A stretch of DNA of 43,755 nt from Candidatus Nanohaloarchaea archaeon (GCA_046497485.1 JAWOFP010000034.1:1-43755); one strand, 5' to 3'; counted from the stretch's first letter, positions 1 through 43,755 are shown. The notes: a model not told the origin generated them from the letters alone. Made by a program: numbers and translations.

Positions 1-822
1 GATGTCGACAAAGAGGGAGTCGAACTTACCTCAACAGTCGAATCGACAGAGCCGAAGAATCTCAGGCCCGGCAACAACTACGCAAACACAAAAGTGAGAA
101 TCACGAACTCCGGGAACAAACCAATAGAGAATATGGAGTTGAGTCCTGAAACACCTGATTTAATCAGGCCTGCTTACTCGAAAGATGAGAAATTCTTTAT
201 CGGTAAGCTGAATCCGGGAGAGTCATCTTCATTCGATATGAGCATCAACCTTGACGAAGAAATAGAACCTGGCAGACATGTGATTGATCTCAATACAGTT
301 TACGAGGATGAAGACAGTAATGAATACAACCAGATTCTGCAAACGCCTATCAGGGTAGAAGGAAGGCCTGATCTGGAACTTGAATCTGTTGAGAATGTAA
401 TGGCGGGAGGAGAGACTTCACAGTTAAGACTCAAAATCAGAAATGATGGAGAACATACTGCAGAGTCTGTCACCGCCAGGACTTTACTTGAAAGAGAACA
501 GCAATTCTCCCTGGATACAAGAAGCGACTACATTGGAGACATTGAAAGCGGAGAGACAGCAGAGGCAGTTATGGAGATCACAGCAGATAGGACTGCGACA
601 CTGAAAGACCACGAAGTCAAGATCCAGATGAGAGCGACAGGCGACTCCGAAGAAGGAGACAGATCAGTTTATACATTCACAGAACACCAGAAAGTTACGC
701 TTGAAGAAAGAACTCGCTCTTCAATGATCTATTTAGGCCTTATAGGCGCCCTAGCTGTCCTAGCTGGAGCTGTCTACTGGAGAAAAAGAGAATCGAATGA
801 CCGAGGTGAGCAAAATGAATGA
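1..822 (+). CDS. COG1361-like (S-layer/CARDB Ig-like repeat) membrane-anchored protein, 5' partial
   Basis: Frame is open from base 1. It has repeated 'I.N.G...A..V....IG.L.PGE' Ig-like units and a C-terminal TM helix with basic tail (LGLIGALAVLAGAVYWRKR). Confidence 0.7.
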   Translation, partial: DVDKEGVELTSTVESTEPKNLRPGNNYANTKVRITNSGNKPIENMELSPETPDLIRPAYSKDEKFFIGKLNPGESSSFDMSINLDEEIEPGRHVIDLNTVYEDEDSNEYNQILQTPIRVEGRPDLELESVENVMAGGETSQLRLKIRNDGEHTAESVTARTLLEREQQFSLDTRSDYIGDIESGETAEAVMEITADRTATLKDHEVKIQMRATGDSEEGDRSVYTFTEHQKVTLEERTRSSMIYLGLIGALAVLAGAVYWRKRESNDRGEQNE

Positions 823-1003
823 ACAGAAATGGGTGATTAGAGGAGTATCAGCAGTATTCCTCATAATGACGCTGCTGATAATCAATGACCAAGTGAACAA
901 CTTACTTTACATCTCAACGGTAGGCCTTGGGTTCTTCCTGTTCGGATATGTAGAGAGGCTGCTTGAAGAAAGAGGATCGCTCAAATCCGGGGAAAGGAGG
1001 TGA
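815..1003 (+). CDS. small two-TM membrane protein, unknown function
   Basis: ATG at 815 overlaps the upstream stop; two hydrophobic segments. Confidence 0.55.
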   Translation: MNEQKWVIRGVSAVFLIMTLLIINDQVNNLLYISTVGLGFFLFGYVERLLEERGSLKSGERR

Positions 1004-1009
1004 AAGATA

Positions 1010-1204
1010 ATGAATCCATTAAACAGTAAGAACGGGTTCGTGAGATTCCTTGCAGGAACAGTGGTTACCACAAGCCTAGCACTAGGCTACTTTGTAAACG
1101 AATTTCTTTATTTGGTAACTCTGTTTGCAGGTCTCAACCTATTGCAGAGCTCTTTCACAGGTTTATGCCCTCCTGAAAAAATCTACAGCAAGTATATAGA
1201 GTGA
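1010..1204 (+). CDS. DUF2892/YgaP-like small membrane protein
   Basis: R..AG, two TM helices and the 'GLNLLQSSFTGLCP' motif; GGAGGTGA RBS upstream. Confidence 0.8.
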   Translation: MNPLNSKNGFVRFLAGTVVTTSLALGYFVNEFLYLVTLFAGLNLLQSSFTGLCPPEKIYSKYIE

Positions 1205-1214
1205 CCAATAAAAA

Positions 1215-1589
1215 TTAGGTTACCCAGGCCTCATCTCTTTCACCTTCTTTCAAATTGTTCTGCCCCCAGGAAATCATTTCCTCTATCAGAGGCAGAAGTT
1301 TTTCACCGAATCCTGTAAGCTCATATGTTATCTTGACCGGTTTATCATCTTCTACATTTCTATTAACTATTCCCTGATCCTGCATCCGGTCCAGATTGTT
1401 GCTTAGAGTCTTGTTAGTGATACCTCCTATCTCTTCCTGAAGTTCTGAGAAACGGATCTCCTCATTTTCGTAGATATGATATGTTATTACAGGCACCCAT
1501 TTGTGACCCAAAATTTTGGAAGTTGATTTGAGAGCACACCATTCCTCAGATCTGCACCATACAGGGATTTTATCCTCCTTTTTAGACAT
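1215..1589 (-). CDS. HxlR/DUF24-family winged-helix regulator with N-terminal Cys residues
   Basis: WCALKSTSKILGHKW...RFSELQ..I.GIT.KTLS..L..M...GIV.R.....P....Y.LT..G; start placed at ATG 1589. Confidence 0.9.
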   Translation of the reverse strand: MSKKEDKIPVWCRSEEWCALKSTSKILGHKWVPVITYHIYENEEIRFSELQEEIGGITNKTLSNNLDRMQDQGIVNRNVEDDKPVKITYELTGFGEKLLPLIEEMISWGQNNLKEGERDEAWVT

Positions 1590-1592
1590 CGT

Positions 1593-1671
1593 GTATCGAC
1601 CTCGAAACCATGTATCATAACCGACACTCAGGCCTTTAATATCGTTTGGAAACCAAGTATCTATATGATAC
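1593..1671. promoter_or_regulatory. array of GTATC-N5/6-GAHAC inverted repeats in a divergent promoter, putative operators of the HxlR-family regulator
   Basis: Perfect GTATC-tatat-GATAC at 1657-1671; degenerate copies at 1593-1608, 1612-1627 and 1639-1653. Confidence 0.5.
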
Positions 1672-1741
1672 AGGCTTCTCCGAATTTTACCAAGAAAGAC
1701 AGTAAAAACAAGATAAAAGAGAAAATCCCCAGGAGATTCAA

Positions 1742-2539: not shown

Positions 2540-2540
2540 A

Positions 2541-3071: not shown

Positions 3072-3088
3072 AGAAAAATTTAGGCCTG

Positions 3089-3814: not shown

Positions 3815-3910
3815 GATACAATCTGTGATTTGGCCGGAATTAAAGGTTTGTGTCAACAGTTGCTGAAATCTTTTTGACAGTTTTGTGATAACTCAAGAGT
3901 TCAATCAACC

Positions 3911-3933: not shown

Positions 3934-3987
3934 GTGTAATGAATCACACACACTAAATACTTAAATGGCGTCAGTAAATATTTGGCC

Positions 3988-7293: not shown

Positions 7294-8373
7294 ATGAAGC
7301 TATACGAACACGAAGCCAAAAAAATATTAGAAAAAAGAGGCCTGAAAGTTCCTGAAGAAGATGGAAAGGAATATGTAGTGAAAGCACAGGTTTTAGCTTC
7401 TGATAGGAAAAAACACGGCGGCATAAAGTTCGCTAAATCAAAGCAAAAAGCAGAAAAAATTGCTGAAGAAATGAAAGATTCAGAGATCCAAGGACATGAA
7501 ATTAACGAAGTTTTAATTGAAGAACAGATAGATATACAGGAAGAATACTATATCGCATTTCTCTGGGATACAGAGCTGAGAAGGCCTGTAATGCTTTTCT
7601 CAGAAGACGGCGGGTCAGGAATAGAGGATAGAGAAGTCCAGAAAATAGAGTTAAAAGAAGAAAACAATTTTAAGAACCTTGAAGAGGATTTGAGGCCTGT
7701 CGCAGAAAAGCTGTTCAAGGCCTTTCTAAATGAGGATATAGAGTTTCTTGAAGTCAATCCTCTAGCTTTTGACGGAGAAAGTTTTGTTGTAGTAGATGCG
7801 ATGATCGAGTTAGAGGATGATGCTTCTTTCAGGCATAAATGGGATTTTCCGGAGAGGACAGAGTTTGCACGTGAGAAGACTGAAAGAGAGATAGAAGCTG
7901 AAAAGATAGATGAAGACGACCATAGAGGTGTAGCTGGAAAGTACACTGAGTTAGAGGGGGACATAGGCATGATGCTGGCTGGCGGAGGCGCATCTTTAAC
8001 TAACATGGACGCACTGATTGAAGCAGGCGGAAAACCCGCAAATTATACAGAATACGGCGGAAACCCGCCAACAGAGAAAGTCTACAGACTCTCAAAAGTT
8101 ATAATGTCAAAGGAGCTGAACGGACTGCTTCATGTAGGCGGGACCGCAAACAACACCAATATACTGAGGACTATGAAGGGATTTATTCGGGCCTTAAGAG
8201 AAGAGAAACCAGATTATCCAATTGTAATCAGAAGAGACGGTCCACAGGCAGATGAGGCCTTTGAACTGTTGCGAGAAGTTAGAGAGGAGTTAGATCTTGA
8301 TATGATACTGTATAGAAATGATCTTCCGATGACAGAAAGCTCGGAAAAATTGATGGAGATGATAGAAGAATGA
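7294..8373 (+). CDS. ATP-citrate lyase beta-like subunit (ATP-grasp plus citrate-binding domain; SucC superfamily)
   Basis: MKLYEHEAK, VVKAQV and EVNPL, plus ACL-type AGGGAS, ANYTEYGGNP, GGTANNT and RRDGP. Confidence 0.8.
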   Translation: MKLYEHEAKKILEKRGLKVPEEDGKEYVVKAQVLASDRKKHGGIKFAKSKQKAEKIAEEMKDSEIQGHEINEVLIEEQIDIQEEYYIAFLWDTELRRPVMLFSEDGGSGIEDREVQKIELKEENNFKNLEEDLRPVAEKLFKAFLNEDIEFLEVNPLAFDGESFVVVDAMIELEDDASFRHKWDFPERTEFAREKTEREIEAEKIDEDDHRGVAGKYTELEGDIGMMLAGGGASLTNMDALIEAGGKPANYTEYGGNPPTEKVYRLSKVIMSKELNGLLHVGGTANNTNILRTMKGFIRALREEKPDYPIVIRRDGPQADEAFELLREVREELDLDMILYRNDLPMTESSEKLMEMIEE

Positions 8374-10073: not shown

Positions 10074-12173
10074 ATGGAGGCCTTCAATATGAAGAGGCCT
10101 CTACATCTGGATTCCAGAACTGTAGCGGATTTCCAAGCCTTAACCGGTACTGGAAATACGAGAGTACTGAACCATTTAATTGAGAACTTGCCTATACGAG
10201 AGGCCTCTCAAAGCCTTGATCCTGAGTTCTATTCGGCTCTATCAGATTTCATAGTAGATGTTGAGGATTCAAAGTTCAACGGGATGAATCCTGTAAAAAA
10301 CCGTGATGATAGATCAAGGTTGCTGGAAGAATGGAGAGCATATACTCTAGGAAACAAAAGCAACATTAATTTGAAGGATTCTGCAAAATCTGATCTAGCG
10401 CTTAGAATAGAAGCTGCTGAAGAAGTGCCAAAAGTTAATGGTATGCCGGTGAACGAGGCAGTAGAGAGAGCAGGAAACTGGCTAGCCGACAGCTATACAG
10501 CTAGAGGTAGAGCCAGGCCTGAAACCGCTTACATTTCACGAGAGGATGCGCTTTTTCAGGATCATCTTGGGCTCAGAGAAGATAGTATTTTGAGAATGTT
10601 TAGTCTTGGTAGCCCGGATGAAAATGACCGTTTACAAGCCAGTGTCGGATTGCTGGCCTCAGAAGCTGATAGAGCTGAGATAATTTATCCTTTCGAACGC
10701 GGTGAGAATAATTTTAGATGGGGCCGCTCAGAACAGATTGAGCAGGACGAAGCAAAAGACATGCTTGGAGCCGATATAGACTCCCTGCTCGAAGATACCG
10801 CCGATTCAATGAAAAATAGCTTAAAAAGAGTATCAAAGCTTTTAGAGGAGGAAACAGGCCTGAAAAGAGAAGGTATTGATCCAAGAGAGTATATCCAGAT
10901 GGTCTACCGCTCTGATCTCGATTCTGTAGAGTTATATCCTGATATAGTTCAGAATTCGATCAAAAAAGCAGTAGCAGAAGCAGGATCCGATAATGCCACA
11001 GGAATCAATGAAAGCTCAGCGAAGAAGGTAAGCAACAATACAGGAGTCATAAGACCTCATGGAGTCGATCCTCTCAGCTTCATGGATGCAGTTTCGAAAT
11101 CTGAGAGTCTAACCAATGTAGATGTAGAAGATGCTGTCAGAAGAGCGGTTCTCGGAGTTGAAAGAACTAAAGATGAGCTAGGATTGAGAAAATATAAATC
11201 AGGAGATAAAGAGGCCTATTCCGTGACCACCATAATCGACCCATTCCCTAATAGCTATGATGAATGGTCTAGACAGGAAAGACTGGATTTTCCTTTCCAT
11301 AGAGAGATAGATACAGGTGGAGGCCTGTTTCACTGGAAAAACATTTATGACGGGGAAAATGGAAGGTATGATGCAGATATTGTCCGTGATTACGCCGGGC
11401 TTAGAGGGACTCTGGCTCACGAAACAGTATTTGAAAACTATGTAGATAATCCTGACGAAGTTAAAGGAGACACTGAAAAGTACTGGCAGAAATTAAAAGA
11501 GCTGAAAGCTGAAAAAGGAGATCTAGGCCCGTTACAGGATATAGTTGACTGGAAAGAGGAGAAAGAGTTTGATGTCCTAGAATATGATAAATCTGGGACA
11601 GGCATCGTACGCAATGGCAGGGAACTTGCGGAAAAAGAGATAGACTGGATAGAAGATGAGTTCAAAAAACTGGAAACAGAACTAGGCCTTAAAAAGGAAA
11701 ATGTGATAGCTGCAGAGAAAGAGTTTGTCCATACCGCTTCCCTTCCATGGAAGGAAGAAAAGTTTTCCTACGGAGGTACAGTCGATTTACTTTACGAACA
11801 TGAATCAGGAGAGACCTGGCTACTTGATCTGAAGACCGGTTCCATGAAACCGAACTATGCTATCCAACAGGCGGCTTACAAAAACGCTATTGAAAACTCG
11901 GAATTCTTCGACATAGACGAGATTGATAGAGTCGTGATACCATCAATAGATCCAGAAAGCATGATGTACACCGAGAATGAACCTGTAGTATATACCGACA
12001 GGCCTCACCAAAATCCTAGATTTGAAAGCAGCAAGTTCCTAGATGCGTCAAACATTGGTCTGGAATCCTCTGAGTACAGACAGAACCGATGGAGGCCTGA
12101 AAACTGGGATGAAGAGGCTTTCTATATCTTCGCTAGAGCAGCAGAGCAAATGAATGAGGCCTCGAGAGCCTAA
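10074..12173 (+). CDS. large protein with a C-terminal PD-(D/E)XK (RecB-like) nuclease domain
   Basis: YSVTTI, RGTLAH, AAEKEF, GGTVDLL, LDLKTG and IQQAAY motifs; the N-terminal ~370 aa are unrecognised. Confidence 0.7.
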   Translation: MEAFNMKRPLHLDSRTVADFQALTGTGNTRVLNHLIENLPIREASQSLDPEFYSALSDFIVDVEDSKFNGMNPVKNRDDRSRLLEEWRAYTLGNKSNINLKDSAKSDLALRIEAAEEVPKVNGMPVNEAVERAGNWLADSYTARGRARPETAYISREDALFQDHLGLREDSILRMFSLGSPDENDRLQASVGLLASEADRAEIIYPFERGENNFRWGRSEQIEQDEAKDMLGADIDSLLEDTADSMKNSLKRVSKLLEEETGLKREGIDPREYIQMVYRSDLDSVELYPDIVQNSIKKAVAEAGSDNATGINESSAKKVSNNTGVIRPHGVDPLSFMDAVSKSESLTNVDVEDAVRRAVLGVERTKDELGLRKYKSGDKEAYSVTTIIDPFPNSYDEWSRQERLDFPFHREIDTGGGLFHWKNIYDGENGRYDADIVRDYAGLRGTLAHETVFENYVDNPDEVKGDTEKYWQKLKELKAEKGDLGPLQDIVDWKEEKEFDVLEYDKSGTGIVRNGRELAEKEIDWIEDEFKKLETELGLKKENVIAAEKEFVHTASLPWKEEKFSYGGTVDLLYEHESGETWLLDLKTGSMKPNYAIQQAAYKNAIENSEFFDIDEIDRVVIPSIDPESMMYTENEPVVYTDRPHQNPRFESSKFLDASNIGLESSEYRQNRWRPENWDEEAFYIFARAAEQMNEASRA

Positions 12174-14460: not shown

Positions 14461-14931
14461 TTATTCATCCATACGGATACCGCCTACAAAGCCTCCGCTC
14501 GAAACCTGATCTGTCAGGCCTTCATTGTCGAAAATTATCTCCACATCGAAGTCTTGTCCAGTATCGTTTCTGGAGAAGTTCGGCAGTCTTACCTCGGCAG
14601 ATTCTTGAGAGCCTAACTCTAGAACATCGGGATCATCTTCTGCCTCTGAAAAATTGCTGTCTCTAAATCTTAGCCGTCCAGAAGGATCTTCAACTGTAAC
14701 ATTCTTCACTTCTGCAGTTCCTCTTCTAGCATTTGTTATCTGCAGACTGAGATTACCTTCGCTTGTAATACCAAAATCCTCCAATAGGATTGACTGACCC
14801 GCCCATCCCGTGACTTCCTCGACATCCTGATCTTGAGCAAGTGTAAAGATAAGGCCTCCGACAATCGCCACAACAAGTAACATCCATCCATAGGTCATTA
14901 AGTACTCGATTGCGGACTGTCCTTTCGTCAT
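14461..14931 (-). CDS. type IV pilin-like protein (class III signal peptide) #1
   Basis: KG|QSAIEYLMTYGW, a hydrophobic helix and a small beta-sandwich. Confidence 0.85.
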   Translation of the reverse strand: MTKGQSAIEYLMTYGWMLLVVAIVGGLIFTLAQDQDVEEVTGWAGQSILLEDFGITSEGNLSLQITNARRGTAEVKNVTVEDPSGRLRFRDSNFSEAEDDPDVLELGSQESAEVRLPNFSRNDTGQDFDVEIIFDNEGLTDQVSSGGFVGGIRMDE

Positions 14932-15665: not shown

Positions 15666-17948
15666 TTACCTTGTCTGGACAACACCAAATCCATCTGTTG
15701 AAACAACGCCTTCAGAATTAGATATAACAATGCTTCCTATTAGAGATTCTAGAACATTCTGAGCTTCAAGCTGATTTTCAGTATCTAAAGATTGGAGAAT
15801 CGGATAACCATCCTGTTTAGCTTTTTCATCTGAGGCCTGAACTGTCTTCCATGTATTCTGGAAATCAAGTCCATTCATATTACTTGAAGCTGAGCTCCCA
15901 TTCATTTGGTCAGTTGTTAAAGATGTACCGCCTGCACTACTGCTCTGGCCTGAGGCCTCCGTATCCCAATAAGAACTTCCTACAGTTCCTCCATCTCCAA
16001 CTAAACCTCCTGAATCATAGTTATTTTGGCCATATACCCTCCCATAACTATAGCTGTTTTCCACAGCACCATTATTCAATTGTCTGCCGACTAAACCCCC
16101 TATCCTTCTATCGCTTGACCCATTCACAGCTACTCCGCTATAAGAGTTATTAATTATTCCTCCATCATTTAACCCTATTAAACCTCCAATTTGTTCATCT
16201 GCCTCAACATTTCCTGAAGCCGCAGCAGCATGAACTTCCCCTCTATTCCATCCTATCAAAGTTGCAGAATAATAGCCCCCATTAATATCCGCATTTTTTA
16301 ATTGAATATCTCTAACAATCGAAGAATCAGATGTCTCTGCAAATAAGGCAGAATAACTGCCATCATCTATAGATAAATCCTCAATTGAACGGCCTGCGCC
16401 ATCAAAAACCCCCGAAAACTGGTCGGAATCTGCAATAGGCTGGAAATCAGAACCAGAGCACGAAATTGAGTCCGTTAATTTATAGCTACTTTCAAACAAA
16501 GATTCCTCATTTATAGCTCTAAGATCATCGCAGCTCCCTATTTCATAAGGCACATTTCCTTCTCCGCACCCATTCCATGGCAAGTCTTTATTTGTCTGAT
16601 TCTCCCAAGCTAAACGAGGGTAACAAGAAACAGAATCCCATATCGCCTCAAAATCAAATCCCTGAAGATTTTCTTCAGCAGGCGTTCCAACCATCTCAGA
16701 AGTCATAAGACCTTCACCGCCAGAAGATCCAGACTGACTTGACGAATTCACATCCCAGTATGAATCTGTTGCGGTCCCATCACCCATTAAACCTCCAGAA
16801 TCATAACCATCAGAACCAATAACTTTCCCCGTACTATAACTTCTGTATGCTCCTCCGCCTCTACCCACTAAACCACCAATTCTAGTATTATCTGTACCAT
16901 TAACTTGCACCATGCTGTAAGAATCATAAACTTCTCCATACTGATTAAAACCAGTTAAACCTCCTAGTTGAGAACTACCCGAAACGCTACCCTCTCTAAC
17001 AAAACTCTGCCTGATTTCACCATTATTCCAGCCAACCAAGCCCCCTGTATACAGCCCGCCAGAAACAGTAATATTTTTTAGTCCAATCCGTTCAACGGTA
17101 GAAGACTCTGAAATACCTCCAAATAATCCTGTATCTGAGCCTTCATTTATTGACAAACCCGAAATAATATGGCCGCTACCATTAAAATGGCCTTCAAACC
17201 TGTTATCACTGTCTCCTATCGATTCAAAATCGCCAAAACCACTGCAATTAATGTTATTAGATAACTGATAATTTTCAGATAAGTTATTTCTCATAGATTG
17301 CAAATCACTACAGTTCTGGACTTGAACAAATGTTGATGCTGATTCTACATCCATGCTCCATACTGTTGAGAAAGAACCCCATTTGATTTCAGGCCTTTCT
17401 CCTTCTTCGAATGATACAATTATTTCTGCATCCGCATTCTCTGAATTTTCAATTGATTCCAAGTTACCTGTTAAGGCCTGGACTGGGATATCCTCTATCC
17501 TATTATCGTTTACTGCTTCGACATCATTGATTAGGTCTTCTTCAAATCCTTCTCTCTTAGGATAATCTGTGAATCTCTCTTGAACCAGGTTTCTAACTTC
17601 TTCATTATTTGAGGCCTGTAAAACTTGTTCACCGAACTCTGTCAATTCAAAGTTAAGCGCCGATTTGTAATAGAGTCGGCCATTCCTTGAGTCCTGCCGC
17701 TCTATACTGACGGTCTCGATATCAAACACATATTCGCTTCCGAGTTCGCCTTCAAAAGTATCCGTGTACTCAGTCGAGGCCTGAACAGTTCCAGATTCAT
17801 TATTCTCATTTTGACTTGCTTCAGGTTCAGAAGCTTGATCGCTTGGACCTTCAACTATACTAGAAATATCTGCCTGGAAAAATATGGCAAGGCCTAAGAA
17901 AGCAAAGATCCCTAGAAATGCTAAAGCCGTTTTATGTCCTTCATCCAT
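15666..17948 (-). CDS. membrane-anchored surface protein with two GLUG-repeat beta-helix modules
   Basis: N-terminal TM; duplicated 'I..C.DL..I...Y.L...I.CSG..F.PI...F.G.F.G.G..I..LSI' with GGLVG repeats and SYWD...S.Q..S.GG. Confidence 0.85.
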   Translation of the reverse strand: MDEGHKTALAFLGIFAFLGLAIFFQADISSIVEGPSDQASEPEASQNENNESGTVQASTEYTDTFEGELGSEYVFDIETVSIERQDSRNGRLYYKSALNFELTEFGEQVLQASNNEEVRNLVQERFTDYPKREGFEEDLINDVEAVNDNRIEDIPVQALTGNLESIENSENADAEIIVSFEEGERPEIKWGSFSTVWSMDVESASTFVQVQNCSDLQSMRNNLSENYQLSNNINCSGFGDFESIGDSDNRFEGHFNGSGHIISGLSINEGSDTGLFGGISESSTVERIGLKNITVSGGLYTGGLVGWNNGEIRQSFVREGSVSGSSQLGGLTGFNQYGEVYDSYSMVQVNGTDNTRIGGLVGRGGGAYRSYSTGKVIGSDGYDSGGLMGDGTATDSYWDVNSSSQSGSSGGEGLMTSEMVGTPAEENLQGFDFEAIWDSVSCYPRLAWENQTNKDLPWNGCGEGNVPYEIGSCDDLRAINEESLFESSYKLTDSISCSGSDFQPIADSDQFSGVFDGAGRSIEDLSIDDGSYSALFAETSDSSIVRDIQLKNADINGGYYSATLIGWNRGEVHAAAASGNVEADEQIGGLIGLNDGGIINNSYSGVAVNGSSDRRIGGLVGRQLNNGAVENSYSYGRVYGQNNYDSGGLVGDGGTVGSSYWDTEASGQSSSAGGTSLTTDQMNGSSASSNMNGLDFQNTWKTVQASDEKAKQDGYPILQSLDTENQLEAQNVLESLIGSIVISNSEGVVSTDGFGVVQTR

Positions 17949-18061
17949 CTATAGTTGAGGCCTCCAATAGATCTATAACCTGTATTTAGTTGTCTTCAGA
18001 CTTAAAATATAGTGACGGAATAATCGACAAATATTTACAGTTTAATCCCAAAACGGGAATT

Positions 18062-18385
18062 ATGCCACTGGCGTCTCAGGAAGAAATCGAAAACTTTGCA
18101 GACCATGTTAGAGCAGAGTTTGGGGAAAGATTAGAAGAAGTAATACTCTACGGATCATATGCAAGAGACGACCATGTACCTGGAAGCGACATAGACATAG
18201 CAATACTTGTAAACGGGAAGAAAAAAGATGATAGAGAAAAAATGTTCGATATAGCCGATAAATTTAGGGAAGAAAAAAATCTTAAATTCTCACCTCGCGT
18301 ATTCGAAAAGAAAGAGTTTAAGAAGAAAGCAGAGAACGACTGGAGCTTCCACTCAAATGTCGAGAAGGAAGGTGTAGAGATATGA
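18062..18385 (+). CDS. MNT minimal nucleotidyltransferase (antitoxin of a HEPN-MNT pair)
   Basis: LYGSYAR......SDIDI motif; start placed at ATG 18062. Confidence 0.92.
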   Translation: MPLASQEEIENFADHVRAEFGERLEEVILYGSYARDDHVPGSDIDIAILVNGKKKDDREKMFDIADKFREEKNLKFSPRVFEKKEFKKKAENDWSFHSNVEKEGVEI

Positions 18386-18750
18386 AGGAAGAAGAAAACT
18401 TGATCGGAAACGCAGAGGAAAGACTTTCAACAGCAAAACTGCTTCTAGAAAACGAAAAATATGGGGATGCTGTCTCAAGAGCATACTACTCAATGTTCAA
18501 CGCCTCCAAAGCCATTCTTCTTACTGAAGATTCAAAGCCTAGAACACATCAAGGAGTGAACAGCGAACTCGGAAAGCTTTTCAGAGAAAGAATAGACAAA
18601 GAACTCCTCAGAGAATTTTCAAGAATCCAGCAAATAAGAGAAGATGTAGACTACGGAACAGAAACGAAAATAAGCCAAAAAGAATCTGAAGAAAAAATAG
18701 AGATAGCAGAAGAATTTCTCATACAAGCCAAAAAAATAGTGGAAAAATAA
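18382..18750 (+). CDS. HEPN domain protein (toxin of a HEPN-MNT pair)
   Basis: A..RAYYSMF..KA.L, TH.GV and R...DY motifs; overlaps the MNT gene. Confidence 0.9.
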   Translation: MKEEENLIGNAEERLSTAKLLLENEKYGDAVSRAYYSMFNASKAILLTEDSKPRTHQGVNSELGKLFRERIDKELLREFSRIQQIREDVDYGTETKISQKESEEKIEIAEEFLIQAKKIVEK

Positions 18751-22836: not shown

Positions 22837-23316
22837 TTACGGGCTCGAATTTATTTGTTCTTTCGTCCATTTCACTAAATCTTTAGTTATAAACAGACTA
22901 GAGTCTCTATAGAGCGAATCAACTACCTGATTAGCCTCATTTTTATCAATAACATTCTCAGAGTATGCTTTCGTAACTAGTGCAAGAGTTCCATGAGGTT
23001 CTAAATCCAGTGATTTAGCTGTCTTTCTAGCATCAAGATCATCTGTAAAAATTAATTCTGAGTTTATCTGACTGGATAGTGCTATAACTGTGGATTCTCC
23101 GAGATCTATACCATATCTAGATGAAATATGCTTCGCCCTATCTTTACCTGAGGCATTAAGTGTTTCTACATCCAAACGCGTTTTGTTGATTATAGCCTCT
23201 CCAACTTCGTTCTCCACTTCTTCAGTGATATGTCTTTCATCTATAACTTCTAAAATCTCTAACTTGTTAATCTGTTCTAAATGTATTATAGGTCCTGCGT
23301 CCAGGACTGCCTTCAT
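22837..23316 (-). CDS. PIN-domain toxin (DUF3368/COG2405-like)
   Basis: VLDAGPIIHL, IDLGES..IAL, FTDD..AR..A and GTL motifs. Confidence 0.88.
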   Translation of the reverse strand: MKAVLDAGPIIHLEQINKLEILEVIDERHITEEVENEVGEAIINKTRLDVETLNASGKDRAKHISSRYGIDLGESTVIALSSQINSELIFTDDLDARKTAKSLDLEPHGTLALVTKAYSENVIDKNEANQVVDSLYRDSSLFITKDLVKWTKEQINSSP

Positions 23317-23510
23317 TCGTTGAGACCCCATTTCACGTCTTCCTTTATGGCATCCTCTAACTGTTCTGACTTCATTTCTCTTATTTTCTGTCTAACTGCA
23401 TCTCTTACTAGTTCTGAACGGTTAGCATACCATCCATCTTCTACTATTTCGTTCATTTCTTCAACCATTCTACTTGGAAATTTAGTAGGCACAGAATCAG
23501 TTTCTCCCAT
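23313..23510 (-). CDS. ribbon-helix-helix antitoxin
   Basis: P.......V..G.Y.NRSELVRDAVR; overlaps the PIN gene start. Confidence 0.88.
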   Translation of the reverse strand: MGETDSVPTKFPSRMVEEMNEIVEDGWYANRSELVRDAVRQKIREMKSEQLEDAIKEDVKWGLNE

Positions 23511-23572
23511 AACTCTATACCATAGTATTACTTTTAAGAATTTTTCGATATATTTCTGATGTATTGCTCTCG

Positions 23573-33362: not shown

Positions 33363-33461
33363 TGATCATGTTTGTGGATTCTTTGTTTTTATATTTTGGA
33401 ATTTTTGTTGACGGCAATCTTGTTGGGTAAGAGATTTAATTCTTTAGTCAAATTGTTTGTT

Positions 33462-33686
33462 ATGACTAGTATTGTTGAGTCTGAAGGAGTTGTGGGCGGG
33501 AAGCCTAGGGTTGAAGGTACTCGTGTCCAGGTTGATGATGTTGTAGGGGCTTACCGTGAGTGGGATTGGAGTATTGAGAGAATTGCGTCAGAGTATGATT
33601 TGAGTGTTCCACAGGTTTTGGATGCTTTAAAGTATTATTACAATAATATGAGTGATTTTCCAGCAGACTCTGATGTAGAGGCTTGA
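33462..33686 (+). CDS. DUF433 antitoxin
   Basis: GGKPRVEGTRV.V..V and QVLDALKYY; start placed at ATG 33462. Confidence 0.9.
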   Translation: MTSIVESEGVVGGKPRVEGTRVQVDDVVGAYREWDWSIERIASEYDLSVPQVLDALKYYYNNMSDFPADSDVEA

Positions 33687-33691
33687 TTAAA

Positions 33692-34030
33692 ATGGCGTTA
33701 AAGCTTTTAGCAGATGAGAATATTCCTAATGCTGTAGTTGATCAGCTTGATAAAACTAATATCGATGTTATTTCTGTAAATGGGTTGATGAAAGGAGGAA
33801 GCGATGTAGAAGTTTTTGAAAAAGCTGTAGAGGACGAAAGAGCAGTTTTAACAATTGATAAAGATTTTGTGTCAGGTCTTGAAGAAGAATTTAAGCATTA
33901 TGGAATAATCAAGTTCCGAGAAAGATACAGGATAGGGAGAATGGTCAAAGATGTACAGAAGGTAAATTCTACACTGTCCAGCGAAGAATTAAATGGAACT
34001 ATAGTTTACCTTCCTTGGGGCAGCCAATAG
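33692..34030 (+). CDS. DUF5615 PIN-like toxin
   Basis: LLADENIP, G.SD..V...A and LT.DKDF motifs. Confidence 0.88.
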   Translation: MALKLLADENIPNAVVDQLDKTNIDVISVNGLMKGGSDVEVFEKAVEDERAVLTIDKDFVSGLEEEFKHYGIIKFRERYRIGRMVKDVQKVNSTLSSEELNGTIVYLPWGSQ

Positions 34031-35865: not shown

Positions 35866-38709
35866 TCAGCCCTTAATATTCACTACAGGCCTCATTTTAG
35901 CCACCTTTTTACCGATTCCTAGAGAGTCGCTGACTTCTATGACTTCATCCACATCCTTGTAGCTGCCAGGCGCTTCCTCCGCGATTGTTGAGCCTGATGC
36001 TGCTTTAACATGGATACCTTCCCGTTTCAAGTCATTCTGAATATCTTTACCCCAGTAATCCTGCTTGGACTGGCTCCTAGACTTTAACCGGCCGGCACCA
36101 TGAGCAGTTGAACCGAATGAAAGACTCATGCTTTTTTCTCCACCGGAAAGAATATAGCTTGAAGTCCCCATAGTACCAGGAATCAATACAGGTTGGCCAG
36201 ACTCTCTGTAGGTCTCCGGAACTTTTTCATGTCCTGGCGGAAAGGCTCGTGTCGCACCTTTTCTATGAACAATAACATCCTTCTGTTTACCATTTACTTC
36301 GTGAGTTTCCTCTTTCGCAATGTTGTGACAGACATCGTAAACCAGGCCTACATCAGGACCGCCAAATAAAGTTCCAAGTGACTCTCTCACAGCTTGAGTG
36401 ATAGCCTGGCGGTTGCACCATGCAAAGTTTGCCGCTGCATACATCGCCCCTTTGTAATCCTGTGCTTCCTGCGAGTCTATAGGGGCATAGATCAAGTTCT
36501 TTTCCGGAATACTTTCAGCGATATCTGGGTAAGCTTTCTCAAACTCCCTCACATAGTCTGAGCAGGTCTGATGGCCTAAACCTCTAGAACCTGAATGAAT
36601 CATTACCAAGACTTGATCCTCTTCTAGCCCGAAGGCCTCAGCCTTCTCCTCTGAGAACACTTCATCAACTACCTGGACTTCTAGGAAATGGTTTCCGCTG
36701 CCTAAAGATCCTAGTTGTTTTAGGCCTCGAGTCTTAGCTTTCTCCGGCACCTTGTCCGAGTTCCCCGGTAGTCGGCCGTTTTCCTCACAGTGTTCCAAGT
36801 CTTCTTTTTCTGCGTGACCGTTTTCCAGCATCCAATCCATTCCTTTTTCCAGAATTTCCTCTAAATCTTCTTCATCGATATCGATGTACCCTCCTTTACC
36901 GAGCCCACACGGAACCTTCGAATAAAGAATGTTAGCCAATTGCTCCTCCATCCCATCAATGTCACCCGCTGTTAAACCAGTTTTAAGCACTCTAACCCCG
37001 CAATTAGATACGATAAACTGGTTTGCATTAAAATTATGAGCTTCATGCTTTACACCAATATCATACACCGTTTCTACACCATCAGCCTCAATTTCTTTGA
37101 TCGTAGTCTTAACAGCAAGATTATCCTTTACTTCAATGTTTTTTGCAAATTCTTCAAAGCTAGGAAAATCCTTAGGAGGCCTTGGACTAGTTTTCCGACC
37201 GCCATATACACTTCTTTCTATAAACCTGTCATTTATCTCAAATCTCTGTTTTATGTCTTTCGGAGCCATACCTCCTTCATACAGCTGTACAGCTTGTTTT
37301 GAGATATTTTTCCTTCTTTCAATTGCTTTTTTCTTGGTTTTAAGATATTGAACTACTCTCACAGACTTTATCCTTTTTTCTAAATTATAGCGATAGCCTA
37401 TCCGGGTGTAGAAATTAATTAAATTTTCTAAGTCGTTCTTTATACCAAGCCTGTGCCTCATTACCTCTCCATCTTGGTTTTCATGAGTTTCGAATGCCTC
37501 AATATTATTCGTGTTTATATTGAGATCCTGTAAAAGCTGTTTTATGCCGCTCATGAATTGTTTGCCGCTCTCTCCAATATTTTTGGACTTGTTTTGGGAG
37601 ATTTTTGGACAATAAAAGTCTTTTGCATGCTGGGCTTTAGGCGAGCTCATCTCTGCTCCAAAGAACGCTGAGAGATAAAGTGCTTTTTGCCATCCTGTCA
37701 ATCTATGCACGTATTCAGGTACAGTAAATTCTTGAGCTGTTTTCTTTCCTTTAGGCGCACCAAGTTTTACAAGTAGTTTTTGGAATGCATTGGAAGTTGA
37801 TTTTATAGACGTTTCGGTTCTTTCGAAGGGCTCCAGTCTTACTTGATGAGTTCTTTTTCTTTCATAAATTGGAGACGGCTTAAACCCTATTCTGCGGATA
37901 TCTTCTGCTATACTTTCTAAGTCCTCCTTGTCAGCATAAAATGTTGTTTCACTGTGATTATTGAATGATCCATCTCCTGTATGAAATCCTACGAGTTTCA
38001 AGAGCAGATTAAATTCTTCGTCAGTAGATTTCAAAGGAAGTAAGTCTCTTTGTTTCAAAGCCTCAATAAGCTGAGGATTCTCTCCCTCAAAGTCTTTTTC
38101 AGTGAGAAGAGTAAATTCTTCAGGTTCTTCATCCTCTACCCCTTCAAAAGGCTGAACATATACTTGTTCTCCTTTATTTAGGTCTTCCACTTCTTTCATG
38201 CCATTAGGCGTTAGGAACGGATGATCTTTAGTTGCTTTAATAGACTCTCCAGTCTCAGTCTCTACGTTAAAAACTTGTTTATCTTCGTTTTCAGTGAAAA
38301 GAACGATATCTGATTCAATTGCCTTCTCTCCTGCAACTACAGCTTTTTCATCAGCAAAGTTCTTCTTCAATTCAGCAATGGATTTGCTTCTTCCGAATTC
38401 AAGAAGGACGTTCGAATCCCTAGATAAGCAATTAATATCGAAGCCTATGCCTCCAGGGCTTATAAGCCCGTTTTCTGCGTTGAAAGCTGCGACTCCTCCG
38501 ATAGGGAACCCATAACCTTGATGGCCGTCAGGCATCACACAAACATGCTTTTCCACACCTGGCAATTTCGCCATATTACAGGCCTGCTCCAATGTAGCAT
38601 CCTCCTTAATCGTCTCCAATAAATCCTCAGAAGCATAAATTTTAGCCGGAACATTCATTCCCTCTTCCAAAATACTGTAAGTATTCTCCTCAACTTTTTC
38701 TATCTCCAT
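35866..38709 (-). CDS. rtcB: RtcB RNA/tRNA-splicing ligase with intein
   Basis: MPD.H.GYG.PIG, GFDIN|CG, GSLGSGNHFLE, HSGSRG, HN, HRKGATR and HGAGR; 471 aa after intein removal. Confidence 0.97.
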   Translation of the reverse strand: MEIEKVEENTYSILEEGMNVPAKIYASEDLLETIKEDATLEQACNMAKLPGVEKHVCVMPDGHQGYGFPIGGVAAFNAENGLISPGGIGFDINCLSRDSNVLLEFGRSKSIAELKKNFADEKAVVAGEKAIESDIVLFTENEDKQVFNVETETGESIKATKDHPFLTPNGMKEVEDLNKGEQVYVQPFEGVEDEEPEEFTLLTEKDFEGENPQLIEALKQRDLLPLKSTDEEFNLLLKLVGFHTGDGSFNNHSETTFYADKEDLESIAEDIRRIGFKPSPIYERKRTHQVRLEPFERTETSIKSTSNAFQKLLVKLGAPKGKKTAQEFTVPEYVHRLTGWQKALYLSAFFGAEMSSPKAQHAKDFYCPKISQNKSKNIGESGKQFMSGIKQLLQDLNINTNNIEAFETHENQDGEVMRHRLGIKNDLENLINFYTRIGYRYNLEKRIKSVRVVQYLKTKKKAIERRKNISKQAVQLYEGGMAPKDIKQRFEINDRFIERSVYGGRKTSPRPPKDFPSFEEFAKNIEVKDNLAVKTTIKEIEADGVETVYDIGVKHEAHNFNANQFIVSNCGVRVLKTGLTAGDIDGMEEQLANILYSKVPCGLGKGGYIDIDEEDLEEILEKGMDWMLENGHAEKEDLEHCEENGRLPGNSDKVPEKAKTRGLKQLGSLGSGNHFLEVQVVDEVFSEEKAEAFGLEEDQVLVMIHSGSRGLGHQTCSDYVREFEKAYPDIAESIPEKNLIYAPIDSQEAQDYKGAMYAAANFAWCNRQAITQAVRESLGTLFGGPDVGLVYDVCHNIAKEETHEVNGKQKDVIVHRKGATRAFPPGHEKVPETYRESGQPVLIPGTMGTSSYILSGGEKSMSLSFGSTAHGAGRLKSRSQSKQDYWGKDIQNDLKREGIHVKAASGSTIAEEAPGSYKDVDEVIEVSDSLGIGKKVAKMRPVVNIKG
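37003..38430 (-). mobile_element. intein (476 aa) with LAGLIDADG homing endonuclease
   Basis: Starts CLSRDS; block B ATKDHPF; LVGFHTGDGS and LSAFFGAE; ends VYDIGV....NF.AN...VSN|C. Confidence 0.95.
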
Positions 38710-39090: not shown

Positions 39091-39092
39091 GT

Positions 39093-40355: not shown

Positions 40356-40439
40356 ATAAGAAAGTTGTAATGACAGCTTTAATGCCTTTAAGCTCATAAG
40401 ATTTTTAACCACAACTAGCCAATTTCATCGAGGGATACT

Positions 40440-41453: not shown

Positions 41454-41557
41454 AAATCAAAAAATCCGAATCAGATAATGGCTTGACCAACTCTTTACAC
41501 AGATGCCTAGCTGGCTCACGAAATTAATTATATTTTCAATCGCGGTTAAACCAAATT

Positions 41558-41576
41558 AATATAACGCCGTTATATT
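41558..41576. repeat. third copy of the ATATAAC-N3-GTTATAT palindromic core
   Basis: AATATAAC-GCC-GTTATATT, intergenic, upstream of the LAGLIDADG gene. Confidence 0.65.
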
Positions 41577-41670
41577 TTGGAAGATAATTCCATAGAGGCG
41601 ATCAAACACTAAAAAGACTCATAAATAAGCAGTAAAAACCATTAAAAACATTAAAAACACTTAATACAAT

Positions 41671-42420
41671 ATGGCTAGCCCAGAACAAATCCAGAAGATA
41701 AAAAAGCTAGCTAAAAAAGGAGAATCAGTTAATAAAATTAAAGAAACACTAGAACTACCGAAATCAACAGTTTATTATCACTTCAAAAAAGAAGTAGGAC
41801 AAAAACAGAAAGAAAAGGCCTTAAAAATCCCAGAAGACGAAGAAATCAAAGGAGAGCTATGTGGAATATTCGCAGGCGACGGAAACTTCTACAAAGAGAA
41901 AAACCAGCAGTACAGGATAAGATTTTATTTCAATTATCACGAAAAGTATTGGGAAGTTCTTGCCGATTTTCTTGAAGAGAAACTTGAAAGAAGGCCTCGA
42001 ATCTATAAATATCCTCATAAAGGGCGCGTAGAATTTGATTACTCATCTAAACCTCTTTACAAATTGTTAAAAGAAAACCTTGACTGGGGCACAGATAAAA
42101 CAGAAAGCATTAGGCTGAAAGAAGATAAAGATTTCTGCGAAGATTTTCAAAGAGGTTTTATTAGAGGTCTTTTAGATACTGACGGTCATCGAGAGAAAAA
42201 GTTTAGAAGATTTATCTATGGGACAATAAGCGTAAGTCTGCGAAATAATTTTTCCAAGATATTAGAAGATTTTATTATAGAACATACAAATTATAAAGAA
42301 GAACCAGAACAAGAGCATTGGAGAACTATGCACAAACTGTGGATTTCAGGTGACGAAGCAGAGATATTTCAGAGAAAAATAAGCCCTAGAAATCCGAAGA
42401 AGCAATATCGCGAGTTTTAA
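41671..42420 (+). CDS. free-standing LAGLIDADG endonuclease-family protein with N-terminal HTH
   Basis: G.S...I...L.LPKSTVYY (HTH); ELCGIFAGDG and FIRGLLDTDG motifs. Confidence 0.85.
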   Translation: MASPEQIQKIKKLAKKGESVNKIKETLELPKSTVYYHFKKEVGQKQKEKALKIPEDEEIKGELCGIFAGDGNFYKEKNQQYRIRFYFNYHEKYWEVLADFLEEKLERRPRIYKYPHKGRVEFDYSSKPLYKLLKENLDWGTDKTESIRLKEDKDFCEDFQRGFIRGLLDTDGHREKKFRRFIYGTISVSLRNNFSKILEDFIIEHTNYKEEPEQEHWRTMHKLWISGDEAEIFQRKISPRNPKKQYREF

Positions 42421-42461
42421 AGAAAAATTACATTCTTTTGACGCGTTAGAATAAGTATAGA

Positions 42462-42567
42462 CGCGGAGCGCGGGATTTGAACCCGCGTTACCACCGCTCC
42501 GCGCACAACACAACGAGGTGATGTGGTTGACAGGGTGGTATGATGGGCCAGACTACACTAGCTCCGC
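42462..42567 (-). tRNA. tRNA-Asp(GTC) with a 31-nt intron at 37/38 (42497-42527)
   Basis: GCGGAGC/GCTCCGC acceptor stem; CCACC-CTGTCA|intron|C-GGTGG; T-arm GCGGGTTCAAATCCCGC; 75 nt after splicing. Confidence 0.95.
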
Positions 42568-42650
42568 TGTATTCTAACAGTTGATGGTGAGTTTTTTAAA
42601 CCATTACTAAATAGGAAAGGAACTAAACCTTTTGGAAAGTGAGTTAGCTT

Positions 42651-43755
42651 ATGGATTACATAGTGATCGGTGACGGAGTAGCAGGCGCGACGGCTGCAGA
42701 AAGGATTAGAAAAGAAGACGAAAAGGCCTCTATAAAGGTTTTTACGGATGAGTCTCAGGCCTTGTACAACCGGATTATGTTGAAGACTTTCATGAAAGGT
42801 ACTTTACCTGCCCAGTATACTCAGATGCATGATGAGGATTGGTATGAGAAAAAGGGTATTGATCTTTATTTGGAGACTAGGATTGAGGAAGTAAAAGATG
42901 AGTATAACAGTGTTATCTCAGAAGATGGTGAGGAATATTCTTACGATAAATTACTGGTGGCGACAGGCGGATCACCTCGAGAATACCCGTTGGATGAGGA
43001 TTATGAGAACCTACATTATATGTGGACGATGAAAGACGCAGAAGAGATTAAGGACTCGGCTGAAAATTCTGAAACCGCAGCAGTAATTGGCGGAGGCCTA
43101 CTGGGAATCGACTTAGCCGTAGCTTACGCAGAAAACGACTGCGAGACCTATTACCTGATTCGAGATGATAGATGGTGGCATCGCGGCATCTCAAAGAAAG
43201 GAGCAGAAATAATTCACAGAAAACTAGAGGAAAAAGGCGTCAATGTAATTACTGAAACAGAGGCCTCAAGTTTTGAAGGAGAAGAAAAAATTGAGAAAGT
43301 TGTAACAGAAAGCAGAGAGTTTGAGGTTGATGCAGTTGCTTTAGCAATTGGACAGACACCTAACTCAGAGATAGTTGATGTTGAGAAGAATGAGGCCTCA
43401 ATGATTAAAGTTGATGAGAATCTCCAGGCTTCTGATGAAGATGTTTTTGCGGCAGGTAACATGGTAGAATACTACTCCCCGGTTTTAGAGGAGAGAACTG
43501 TGAAAGGATCTTGGGATCATAGTGAGGCGATGGGAGAGTATGCAGCAGACAACATACTGGGAAATGATAGGCCTTTCAACTTCATCAACACCTATGGAGT
43601 AGGTCATTTCGATGTACAGTTCTTAGCGATCGGGGACTGGACCGGCGAACCGGTAGAGAAAAAGTATTCAGAGGATGAGTATCGTAGACTCTTCTTCAAA
43701 AATGATAGACTGGTCGGCGCCGTAATGATAGGATTCACTAAAGGCCAGGAAAAAA
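42651..43755 (+). CDS. NAD(P)/FAD-dependent pyridine nucleotide oxidoreductase, 3' partial (not in the ORF track)
   Basis: Hand translation gives MDYIVIGDGVAG..AA, YNRI.L, YDKLLVATGG, VIGGGLLG and VFAAGN; the frame is open to the window end. Confidence 0.9.
   Translation, partial: MDYIVIGDGVAGATAAERIRKEDEKASIKVFTDESQALYNRIMLKTFMKGTLPAQYTQMHDEDWYEKKGIDLYLETRIEEVKDEYNSVISEDGEEYSYDKLLVATGGSPREYPLDEDYENLHYMWTMKDAEEIKDSAENSETAAVIGGGLLGIDLAVAYAENDCETYYLIRDDRWWHRGISKKGAEIIHRKLEEKGVNVITETEASSFEGEEKIEKVVTESREFEVDAVALAIGQTPNSEIVDVEKNEASMIKVDENLQASDEDVFAAGNMVEYYSPVLEERTVKGSWDHSEAMGEYAADNILGNDRPFNFINTYGVGHFDVQFLAIGDWTGEPVEKKYSEDEYRRLFFKNDRLVGAVMIGFTKGQEK

What the first reader, a model, noticed from the sequence alone, without database searches (positions are those of the whole stretch)
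1..43755. AGGCCT is a highly iterated palindrome (about 1 per 300 bp)
Seen: a hand count gives roughly 140 AGGCCT sites, against about 7 expected at ~42% GC. They occur in all reading frames (Glu-Ala, Arg-Pro, Gly-Leu), in genes on both strands and in intergenic DNA, so codon bias alone does not explain them. I found none in MNT-HEPN, the PIN-RHH module, the second DUF433 pair or the GLUG core, and one in the 1.4-kb intein. Known analogues are cyanobacterial HIP1 and DNA-uptake sequences. Inference: a methylation/repair-driven, uptake or chromatin-binding signal that also marks how long a gene has been resident. I do not know whether it has already been reported for this lineage.
Basis: partly seen in the sequence, partly recalled or inferred. 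Interest (0 to 1): 0.75.

Follow-up and report, generated by a model that had tools for sequence, protein, structure and literature searches.

The report
AGGCCT palindrome tracks archaeal AddAB nuclease
This tiny salt-loving symbiotic archaeon carries the six-letter palindrome AGGCCT about once every 300 bases, filling three quarters of the places its proteins allow, and the word is likely a stop signal read by a bacterial-type DNA-end-trimming enzyme (AddAB) that all ten word-rich genomes examined encode, which would be the first such signal in archaea.

Summary
Confirmed: 144 AGGCCT in the window (7 expected) and 3,249 in this 968-kb nanohaloarchaeal genome. The excess survives protein-preserving shuffles (2,882 vs 398), occurs in all frames and spacers, fills about 75% of protein-permitted places, has shifted dipeptide usage, is conserved between close relatives, and sites avoid each other below about 100 bp. 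Ten of 42 family genomes are word-rich; they share no DNA methyltransferase, and no ComEC was found in the four tested. All 10 encode an AddB-like protein (model best matches B. subtilis AddB) and none encodes NurA; the two are almost mutually exclusive in the family. Two word-poor congeners lack AddB, and the one word-poor AddB-positive genome I could read whole has an AddA without its nuclease domain. Best reading (0.55): a palindromic Chi-like resection stop. Against: 15 of 32 word-poor genomes also have AddB, kin are not independent, known Chi sites are non-palindromic, and there is no biochemistry. I found no report in print. The scan noted this word, and the AddAB idea, before on other DNA and on other pieces of this genome.

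The parts
166..43574 (.). 144 dispersed copies of the palindrome AGGCCT, mean spacing about 300 bp; only 5 of 143 gaps are under 30 bp
7294..8373 (+). Example of a saturated core gene (ATP-grasp/citrate-lyase-type subunit): 5 of 5 permitted positions filled
10074..12173 (+). 699-aa ORF without Pfam family, not found in G005 or G024: 11 of 20 permitted positions filled
15960..17390 (-). Site-free core of the GLUG-repeat surface protein (gene 15666-17948, 7 of 22 permitted positions filled); related contigs replace this stretch, so it is likely recently exchanged
   Evidence: (joint 15869-17357 with 941 other letters in one contig of run X1; lowest depth bins)
17990..18750 (+). MNT-HEPN pair: 0 sites but also 0 permitted positions, so uninformative
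22837..23560 (-).
33372..34030 (+). Second DUF433/DUF5615 pair: 0 sites, 1 permitted position
37003..38394 (-). Intein in RtcB (residues 106-569): 1 site in 1,392 bases

Best explanation
[quoted passage not shown] Shown: the word statistics; an overlapping addB-addA gene pair in G000 (contig C62:17323-22499, outside the window); an AddB fold with an inactive helicase-like N-terminal half and a PD-(D/E)XK nuclease; an AddA with UvrD motor plus C-terminal nuclease. Inferred: the complex loads at a double-strand break and degrades DNA until the AddB scanner binds AGGCC(T) on the 3' strand, the AddA nuclease is attenuated and a 3' tail is left for RadA. Being a palindrome, one site would stop enzymes arriving from either side. 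Each new site shortens the DNA lost per break (selection) and would be kept while word-less alleles are chewed through and copied over (repair drive); a site next to another adds little, giving the spacing pattern. When AddAB, its 3' nuclease or its scanner motif is lost, the word would decay.
For: (1) AddB-like gene in 10 of 10 word-rich genomes, including three only 68-82% complete, vs 15 of 32 word-poor family genomes (Fisher p 0.003 if genomes were independent). (2) NurA in 0 of 10 word-rich and 16 of 32 word-poor; AddB only 23, NurA only 14, both 2, neither 3 of 42, so AddAB behaves as the alternative resection machine. (3) Inside genus g2 the word-rich G005 and G025 have AddB; word-poor G063 and G064 (89%, 85% complete) do not. 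(4) AlphaFold model (pLDDT 85.6, 57 sequences): five best Foldseek hits are B. subtilis AddB chains (4cej_B E 1e-12); VIA-align best 3u44_B, Z 17.5, rmsd 13.4, 668 aligned. (5) G024, AddB-positive and word-poor, has an AddA that ends at 759 aa without the nuclease domain (no match anywhere in its single contig), a toxin-antitoxin-like pair inserted between the genes, and a 4-residue deletion in the AddB segment I read as motif Ib; the AddA nuclease domain is present in all 4 word-rich genomes where I had the sequence (G000, G001, G003, G005). (6) Among 59 AddB homologues, the segment GxF[AC]xTPx[RK] is intact in 19 of 19 with many word-compatible dipeptides and in 5 of 17 with few (proxy only; 23 intermediate rows left out). 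Chi-reading residues of B. subtilis AddB lie in motifs Ia and Ib (PMC3321194, passages). (7) Occupancy in G000 core genes depends on the distance to both neighbours, over 100-200 bp (0.09 to 0.87; adding the farther neighbour gains 8-30 log-likelihood units), longer than one protein footprint. (8) In G022 the one-strand word AGGCCN is enriched 2.5-2.9x and AGGCCT 5.0x while other xGGCCy words are mostly near 1, as a five-letter word read on one strand would give. (9) Third codon positions inside the word differ at 17 of 283 aligned positions between close word-rich loci, the same codons outside at 611 of 1,936 (8 overlapping pairs). (10) G004 in the same genus is losing it: 5 of 34 G003 sites kept, vs 20 of 37 between G000 and G003; its AddB is found only in pieces at contig ends.
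Against: 13 word-poor genomes also have AddB and no NurA (G004, G007, G013, G016, G017, G018, G024, G030, G031, G035, G036, G061, G062); most have a full-length AddB match and I could read AddA in only one of them (G024), which also carries a GGCC methyltransferase that could explain its loss by itself. All word-rich genomes on the tree sit in one 15-row NurA-less clade, so the tables overstate; the tree was the quick one and no clade test was run. AddB was one of several candidates tried, and others also came near full presence in word-rich genomes (69-aa wHTH 9 of 10, DUF483-like 8 of 10, HD 7 of 10). Only parts of the gene content could be compared with the clean congeners (4 stretches, 74 kb of G005's 1,046 kb). 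Known Chi sites are non-palindromic and G-rich with a GxGG core and mostly strand-polarised; AGGCCT is neither. No alternative strongly enriched word was seen in G024 (best 5-mer 1.4x). Flanks of one-strand words AGGCCV are symmetric, which gives no sign of polarity (confounded by a generic flank effect). The far-neighbour effect is absent in G005. Sequence searches do not link the AddB-like protein to solved AddB; the residue correspondence to B. subtilis motif Ib is my inference from motif order and secondary structure. In a cyanobacterium, deleting addAB did not remove the HIP1 effect.
Confidence: 0.55

Rival explanations
1. The word is the preferred site of an abundant sequence-specific double-stranded DNA-binding (chromatin or nucleoid) protein; weak selection fills available sites and neighbouring sites compete for space.
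For: A palindrome suits a homodimer; strongest mutual avoidance is below 30 bp; A/T at synonymous positions oscillates with about 10-bp period around the site, rank 1 of about 1,960 hexamers in G000 and G005; lineage-specific bases at -1/-2.
Against: The periodicity is genome-wide, also in word-poor G024, and only 1-2x that of other GC-rich words; the TT..AA flank is largely generic for GGCC words in word-poor genomes (O/E 1.15-1.41 vs 1.40-1.52); histones occur in 26 of 26 genomes with no word-linked residue in the copies aligned; the small wHTH is in 21 of 27 word-poor genomes; no unique DNA-binding candidate among 61 genes shared by G000 and G005 and missing or much weaker in G024.
Confidence: 0.2
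2. A repair or mutation bias other than AddAB (an unrecognised glycosylase or mismatch enzyme, or a modification supplied by the host through the cell bridge) converts near-misses into the word and protects it, without benefit to the cell.
For: Odds of the word over neutral codon choice are 9-71x by frame and genome, and amino acids are overridden (RP O/E 1.6 vs 0.8); biased repair would also look like conservation; methyltransferase transfer from symbiont to host has been proposed in one consortium (PMC11001535, passages).
Against: No shared methyltransferase; no near-miss class is specifically depleted (most O/E 0.6-3); empty permitted sites persist between relatives (146 both, 31 one, 65 neither); site-by-site repair does not predict avoidance between sites over 100 bp; PolB2, the alkyltransferase-like gene and the HD hydrolase do not follow the word.
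Confidence: 0.13
3. It is a DNA-uptake or transfer sequence accumulated by molecular drive, like Neisseria DUS or the uptake role proposed for HIP1.
For: Even spacing, saturation of silent positions and lineage dialects resemble uptake sequences (recalled); pilin-like genes are abundant in G000; HIP1 correlates with pilus genes in cyanobacteria (PMC13756078, Discussion read).
Against: No ComEC in 5 of 5 genomes, 4 of them word-rich; the main pilin family is shared by G000 and word-poor G024 and missing from word-rich G005, whose other pilus-like locus is word-poor; spacing scale of 30-100 bp is far shorter than uptake fragments (recalled).
Confidence: 0.06
4. It is the target of this genome's own C5 methyltransferase (contig C53), as alternate HIPs of cyanobacteria are of theirs.
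For: G000 has one C5 enzyme; AGGCCT is a known methylation motif in a bacterium (PMC12128166, passages).
Against: Absent from the 9 other word-rich genomes, four of them single contigs; lies on the contig with the lowest word density (1.8 per kb); matches M.HaeIII only over the catalytic half, residues 12-176; the full HaeIII homologue in G024 goes with depletion (97 sites).
Confidence: 0.02

Closest known systems
Chi (5'-AGCGG) and AddAB of Bacillus subtilis; Chi and RecBCD of E. coli; Caulobacter chi (PMC3321194, PMC4824097, PMC5443536, PMC8022716)
   Same: Short over-represented word, richer in core genes; two-gene helicase-nuclease with an inactive helicase-like scanner subunit and two PD-(D/E)XK nucleases; the fold matches AddB best.
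   Different: Archaeal; palindromic, so not strand-polarised; no GxGG core; about one site per 300 bp with most permitted places filled; AddB is shorter (about 850 vs 1,150 aa) at 10-12% identity; activity untested. A 2026 preprint states that Chi sites have not been identified in archaeal genomes (10.64898/2026.05.08.723854, passages).
HIP1 (GCGATCGC) and alternate HIPs (GGCGCC, rCCGGy, GCsGC) of cyanobacteria (PMC4390886, PMC5861425, PMC13756078)
   Same: Palindrome at very high density (3,358 per Mb vs about 500-2,500), all frames and spacers, conserved, patchy gain and loss among relatives.
   Different: No cognate methyltransferase; no ComEC; short-range mutual avoidance; no significant 10-90 kb period in a simple test; co-occurs with AddAB.
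DNA uptake sequences of Neisseriaceae and Pasteurellaceae (recalled, no paper read)
   Same: Dense, evenly spread, fills silent positions, lineage dialects.
   Different: Palindromic 6-mer, no ComEC, pili do not follow the word.
UvrD-Cas4-like (pfam12705) helicase-nuclease fusions of bacteria and mesophilic archaea (PMC5704561, passages)
   Same: The AddA-like gene has this architecture, already noted in archaea.
   Different: Here it is paired with an AddB-like gene, nearly excludes NurA, and is linked to a genome word.

Membership tests
Chi / AddAB | Short word over-represented, more so in the core genome | tested here: met
   7.2x over synonymous shuffles; 74% vs 54% occupancy core vs G000-only genes
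Chi / AddAB | Cognate helicase-nuclease with inactive helicase-like scanner subunit and nuclease-bearing motor subunit | tested here: met
Chi / AddAB | Word attenuates nuclease activity and promotes recombination | not testable with these tools
   needs biochemistry or break mapping
Chi / AddAB | Non-palindromic, read in one orientation, polarised on the leading strand | tested here: not met
   The word is a perfect palindrome; one-strand variants AGGCCV show only a weak bias that follows GC skew in G005. PMC8022716 notes polarity may not be required
Chi / AddAB | G-rich word with 3' GxGG core (B. subtilis, E. coli) | tested here: not met
   AGGCCT lacks it (sequence; PMC3321194 passage)
Chi / AddAB | Chi-reading residues in scanner motifs Ia, Ib, II | tested here: inconclusive
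   Candidate segments are conserved in likely word-rich homologues and degenerate in G024; residue mapping to B. subtilis not obtained from any tool
Highly iterated palindrome (HIP1 type) | Palindromic word far above every other word of its length | tested here: met
   21x vs next 2.15x
Highly iterated palindrome (HIP1 type) | All reading frames and spacers; not a peptide or codon effect | tested here: met
Highly iterated palindrome (HIP1 type) | Sites conserved between related genomes beyond silent background | tested here: met
   17 of 283 vs 611 of 1,936
Highly iterated palindrome (HIP1 type) | Methyltransferase specific for the word or its core | tested here: not met
   PF00145 and PF01555 searched, other amino-methyltransferases only by motif scan in G000, G005, G024 and 360 kb of G022
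Highly iterated palindrome (HIP1 type) | 10-90 kb periodicity along the chromosome | tested here: inconclusive
   Simple periodogram on G005: peaks at 349 kb (9.3) and 52 kb (8.5) vs permutation 95% limit 9.3; the published method was not reproduced
DNA uptake sequence | ComEC-type competence channel | tested here: not met
   0 of 5 genomes, control 11 of 14
DNA uptake sequence | Pilin receptor that follows the word | tested here: inconclusive
DNA uptake sequence | Preferential uptake of word-bearing DNA | not testable with these tools
   needs culture

The most novel reading that the evidence does not exclude
One branch of nanohaloarchaea replaced NurA-type end resection with a bacterial-type AddAB that reads a palindromic, two-way Chi site, the first Chi system in archaea; selection and repair drive at that site have rewritten three quarters of permitted positions and part of the proteome, and sister genomes show each stage of switching it off (AddAB loss, loss of the AddA nuclease, scanner deletion, arrival of a GGCC restriction system). 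It would also give a methylation-free model for how highly iterated palindromes arise.
Probability: 0.5. Interest if true: 0.88.

Novelty: new variant of a known kind. Interest (0 to 1): 0.76.

Why it matters
Chi sites are said not to be known in archaea and AddAB is said to be absent there; highly iterated palindromes have been unexplained for decades. Here a named enzyme pair, a six-letter word and close relatives with and without both make a direct in vitro test possible. The word also dates gene residence and could help bin nanohaloarchaeal contigs (for example 15 of 38 nanohaloarchaeal-like metagenome loci stand at 11-29x).

Tried and rejected
Codon or dipeptide bias: rejected. Assembly artefact or repeat: all 66 contigs, 9 other genomes and metagenome loci carry it. 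Methyltransferases. Candidate drivers rejected because word-poor genomes have them or word-rich single-contig genomes lack them: 69-aa wHTH (35, 59), PolB2, 402-aa unknown, DUF483-like, alkyltransferase-like, basic 240-aa island protein, HD hydrolase, histones. Untested from the candidate list for lack of searches: DnaG, DUF5828, Mrr-like membrane protein, SWIM protein, Cdc6 paralogues, RHH-nucleotidyltransferase, several small SAM methyltransferases. Extended site TTnnAGGCCTnnAA: first looked like a 14-bp footprint, then proved largely generic for GGCC words. Nucleosome-dyad idea: periodicity not specific. Position near starts and stops: flat in G000, higher in spacers in G005. Population variants: laying 4 runs showed only 40 of about 4,500 differences, unusable; no RNA holder listed. 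rRNA density: my primer scan found no 16S in G000 or G005, so not assessed. Viruses: integrase query found nothing; a triple-word scan of viral contigs gave 121 loci, none with a nanohaloarchaeal match except one C5 methyltransferase. Single-sequence fold failed; sequence searches of AddB against PDB and NCBIfam were blank. The script stopped with an error after the word-rich pairs, so the codon-level comparison of decay pairs and of genera g2, g7, g19 was not obtained. One paper on AddAB distribution was not held. AddB and AddA sequences of most handles were not obtained, which leaves 12 of the 13 exceptions unexamined. Literature searches without a report of this word in archaea: 0 papers; 1, unrelated; 0; open-access text only, no supplements opened.


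Full report
Observation. The window holds 144 AGGCCT against 7.15 expected. It is contig C51 of genome G000 (968 kb, 66 contigs, 97% complete), which has 3,249 sites, 3.4 per kb, on every contig; the word is 21x over base composition while the next palindromic hexamer is 2.15x. The lineage is Nanohaloarchaea: the closest named records for a window gene are Ca. Nanohalobium sp. and Ca. Nanohaloarchaea. Genes were called by my own ORF script, not a trained gene finder.

Not codon bias. In 978 ORFs of 300 nt or more there are 2,882 sites; shuffling synonymous codons within each gene gives 398 +/- 18, shuffling codon order 182 +/- 12 (20 shuffles each). Where the protein allows the word it is used at 524 of 677 Arg-Pro, 974 of 1,318 [KQE]-Ala+T and 1,384 of 1,853 A+Gly-Leu positions; spacers hold 265 sites in 74,189 bases, the same density. 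Proteins have been bent toward it: RP O/E 1.61, 1.58, 1.22 and GL 1.45, 1.28, 1.21 in G000, G005 and part of G022, against 0.81/1.02 in G024 and 0.86/0.89 in pooled word-poor loci; permitted positions 5.0, 5.1, 3.9 vs 2.9 per kb.

Residence and conservation. Core genes fill 1,426 of 1,931 permitted positions, genes found only in G000 449 of 828; in G005 the longest gaps cover defence islands, an integrase, surface proteins and rRNA-like stretches. Between the window and close metagenome loci (77-93% nucleotide identity, 8 overlapping pairs) third positions inside the word differ at 17 of 283, the same codons elsewhere at 611 of 1,936; in two non-overlapping pairs 4 of 80 vs 153 of 561.

Spacing. 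Pairs of permitted positions are both filled far less often than expected when close: ratio 0.11 at 6-9 bp, 0.55-0.8 at 20-80 bp, 1.0 beyond 100 bp in G000; 0.31 at 6-9 bp and recovered by about 25 bp in G005. I took this lead from earlier scan notes and tested it. In G000 core genes occupancy rises with the distance to the nearer and also to the farther neighbour (for a nearer site at 31-60 bp: 0.44, 0.62, 0.70, 0.80); G005 shows only the near effect.

Distribution. Of 42 family genomes, 10 have 2-4.8 sites per kb (G000-G003, G005, G025, G010, G026, G022, G034), G004 has about 1, and 31 have under 0.7; 20 other genomes of the order are low. On a quick RpoA' tree of 30 rows the word-rich genomes form three groups interleaved with word-poor ones inside one 15-row clade (no clade test). 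The trait switches inside genera: G004 keeps 5 of 34 sites of G003, and G063, G064 are word-poor congeners of G005. Dialects differ: strict AGGCCT in G000, AGGCCY in G005, AGGCCN in G022.

No methylase, no uptake channel. G000 has one C5 methyltransferase on a word-poor contig; the other 9 word-rich genomes have none; N4/N6 family matches are sporadic and motif scans found only a type I enzyme in a G005 island. G024 has a full-length M.HaeIII homologue (E 2e-95) and only 705 GGCC and 97 AGGCCT: here a GGCC methylase goes with loss. ComEC is absent in 5 of 5. Two papers on nanohaloarchaeal methylation (PMC10266531, PMC11001535; passages) report GDGCHC and never mention GGCC.

The search for a driver. 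Comparing G000 and G005 with G024 gave 61 genes; eight candidates or families were tested and rejected (see Tried and rejected). A DNA search with 20 kb of G005 then showed a 4-kb stretch present in word-rich G025, G010, G034 and not in G063, G064: an addB-addA pair (G000 C62:17323-22499). G024 had hidden it because it has the pair too. Across 42 genomes AddB is in 10 of 10 word-rich and 15 of 32 word-poor. The AddB model matches B. subtilis AddB best; AddA matches UvrD/AddA families and has a C-terminal PD-(D/E)XK domain. G024's AddA stops before that domain, which is the one attenuated at Chi in B. subtilis (PMC4824097, passages), and its AddB has a deletion in the segment I read as motif Ib. 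In 59 homologues that segment is intact in 19 of 19 rows rich in word-compatible dipeptides and 5 of 17 rows poor in them; this proxy is noisy, the rows are kin, and haloarchaeal-type homologues keep the motif with intermediate scores. I reached the AddAB reading; one search then showed that earlier agents had reached it on other windows, which is not independent evidence.

How it would work. Shown: word statistics, gene pair, fold, co-occurrence. Inferred from B. subtilis and Caulobacter AddAB: loading at a break, degradation until the scanner binds the word on the 3' strand, attenuation, 3' tail for the recombinase. A palindrome stops enzymes from both sides, and AGGCC on one strand gives half the benefit, as in G022. 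Benefit per site depends on the gaps to both neighbours, as in G000. Whether selection or biased copying during repair fills the sites cannot be told from these data.

What speaks against. Thirteen word-poor genomes have AddB without NurA and only one was read; kin are not independent; several candidates were tried; only 74 kb of G005 was compared with the clean congeners; the word is palindromic and lacks the GxGG core; no polarity was seen in flanks; addAB deletion did not remove the HIP1 effect in a cyanobacterium (10.1101/2024.09.10.611283, passages). So I do not file it as a canonical Chi or as HIP1: it works like a Chi (0.55) and looks like a HIP.

Literature seen. Abstracts: PMC5861425, PMC4390886, PMC13756078, PMC5443536. 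Sections: PMC4390886 section 2.3 (75), PMC13756078 Discussion (74), PMC5443536 one Results section. Passages only: PMC12128166, PMC11001535, PMC10266531, PMC3691661, PMC4824097, PMC3321194, PMC8022716, PMC5704561 and two preprints. No supplements opened; genome papers' supplements could mention the word. Searches found no report of AGGCCT iteration or of Chi in archaea. Statements on uptake sequences and the McrBC reading of the C53 neighbours are recalled, not from a call.

Verdict. Real, strong and unreported in the literature I could search; new variant of a known kind; interest 0.76.

Noticed in passing
G000 vs 41 family genomes: AddB-like gene and NurA are almost mutually exclusive in this nanohaloarchaeal family (23 AddB only, 14 NurA only, 2 both, 3 neither), while most family f3 genomes have both: an apparent swap of end-resection systems, of interest whatever the word does.
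   Followed up: partly
L004 / G024:C1:840488-842407 and L003 / G020: HaeIII-like GGCC methyltransferase with an adjacent 300-aa ORF; both genomes are among the poorest in AGGCCT (97 and 73). G021 is poorer still (55) without a C5 enzyme.
   Followed up: partly
G000, G005, G022, G024 coding DNA: All four genomes show about 10-bp A/T vs G/C phasing at silent positions, as expected of histone-wrapped DNA; 26 of 26 genomes tested have 3-5 histone-fold matches.
   Followed up: partly
window 41671-42420 and 42462-42567: LAGLIDADG ORF beside a 106-nt tRNA match that Rfam finds and ARAGORN does not: possibly an intron-containing tRNA with a free-standing homing endonuclease.
   Followed up: no
window 35866-38709: RtcB carries a 464-aa intein and lies next to archease, with a MazEF pair between them.
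   Followed up: no
window 14461-14931, 21968-22735, 28672-29169: Pilin-like signal sequences; G000 has at least 15 such genes, many fused to or beside large variable surface proteins that are poor in the word; G005 lacks this family.
   Followed up: partly
window 3982-6696: Class I ribonucleotide reductase pair; the small subunit is not found in G005 or G024 and the region recruits many unrelated contigs.
   Followed up: no
G005 vs G000: RadA, seryl- and isoleucyl-tRNA synthetases and a heavy-metal ATPase-like gene are far more alike between these two genera (72-87%) than either is to G024, suggesting gene exchange among word-rich lineages.
   Followed up: no
L279 vs L292/L295; L287, L288: Further metagenome loci with intermediate word levels (O/E 2-8), one at 83% identity to a word-rich locus: more cases of decay or gain.
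   Followed up: no
L353: A contig filed under a Colwellia MAG is 78% identical to nanohaloarchaeal loci over 13 kb; likely mis-binned.
   Followed up: no
G000 C53:98-4274: C5 methyltransferase next to an AAA+ ATPase and partner that look like McrB/McrC (recalled motifs); absent from other word-rich genomes.
   Followed up: partly
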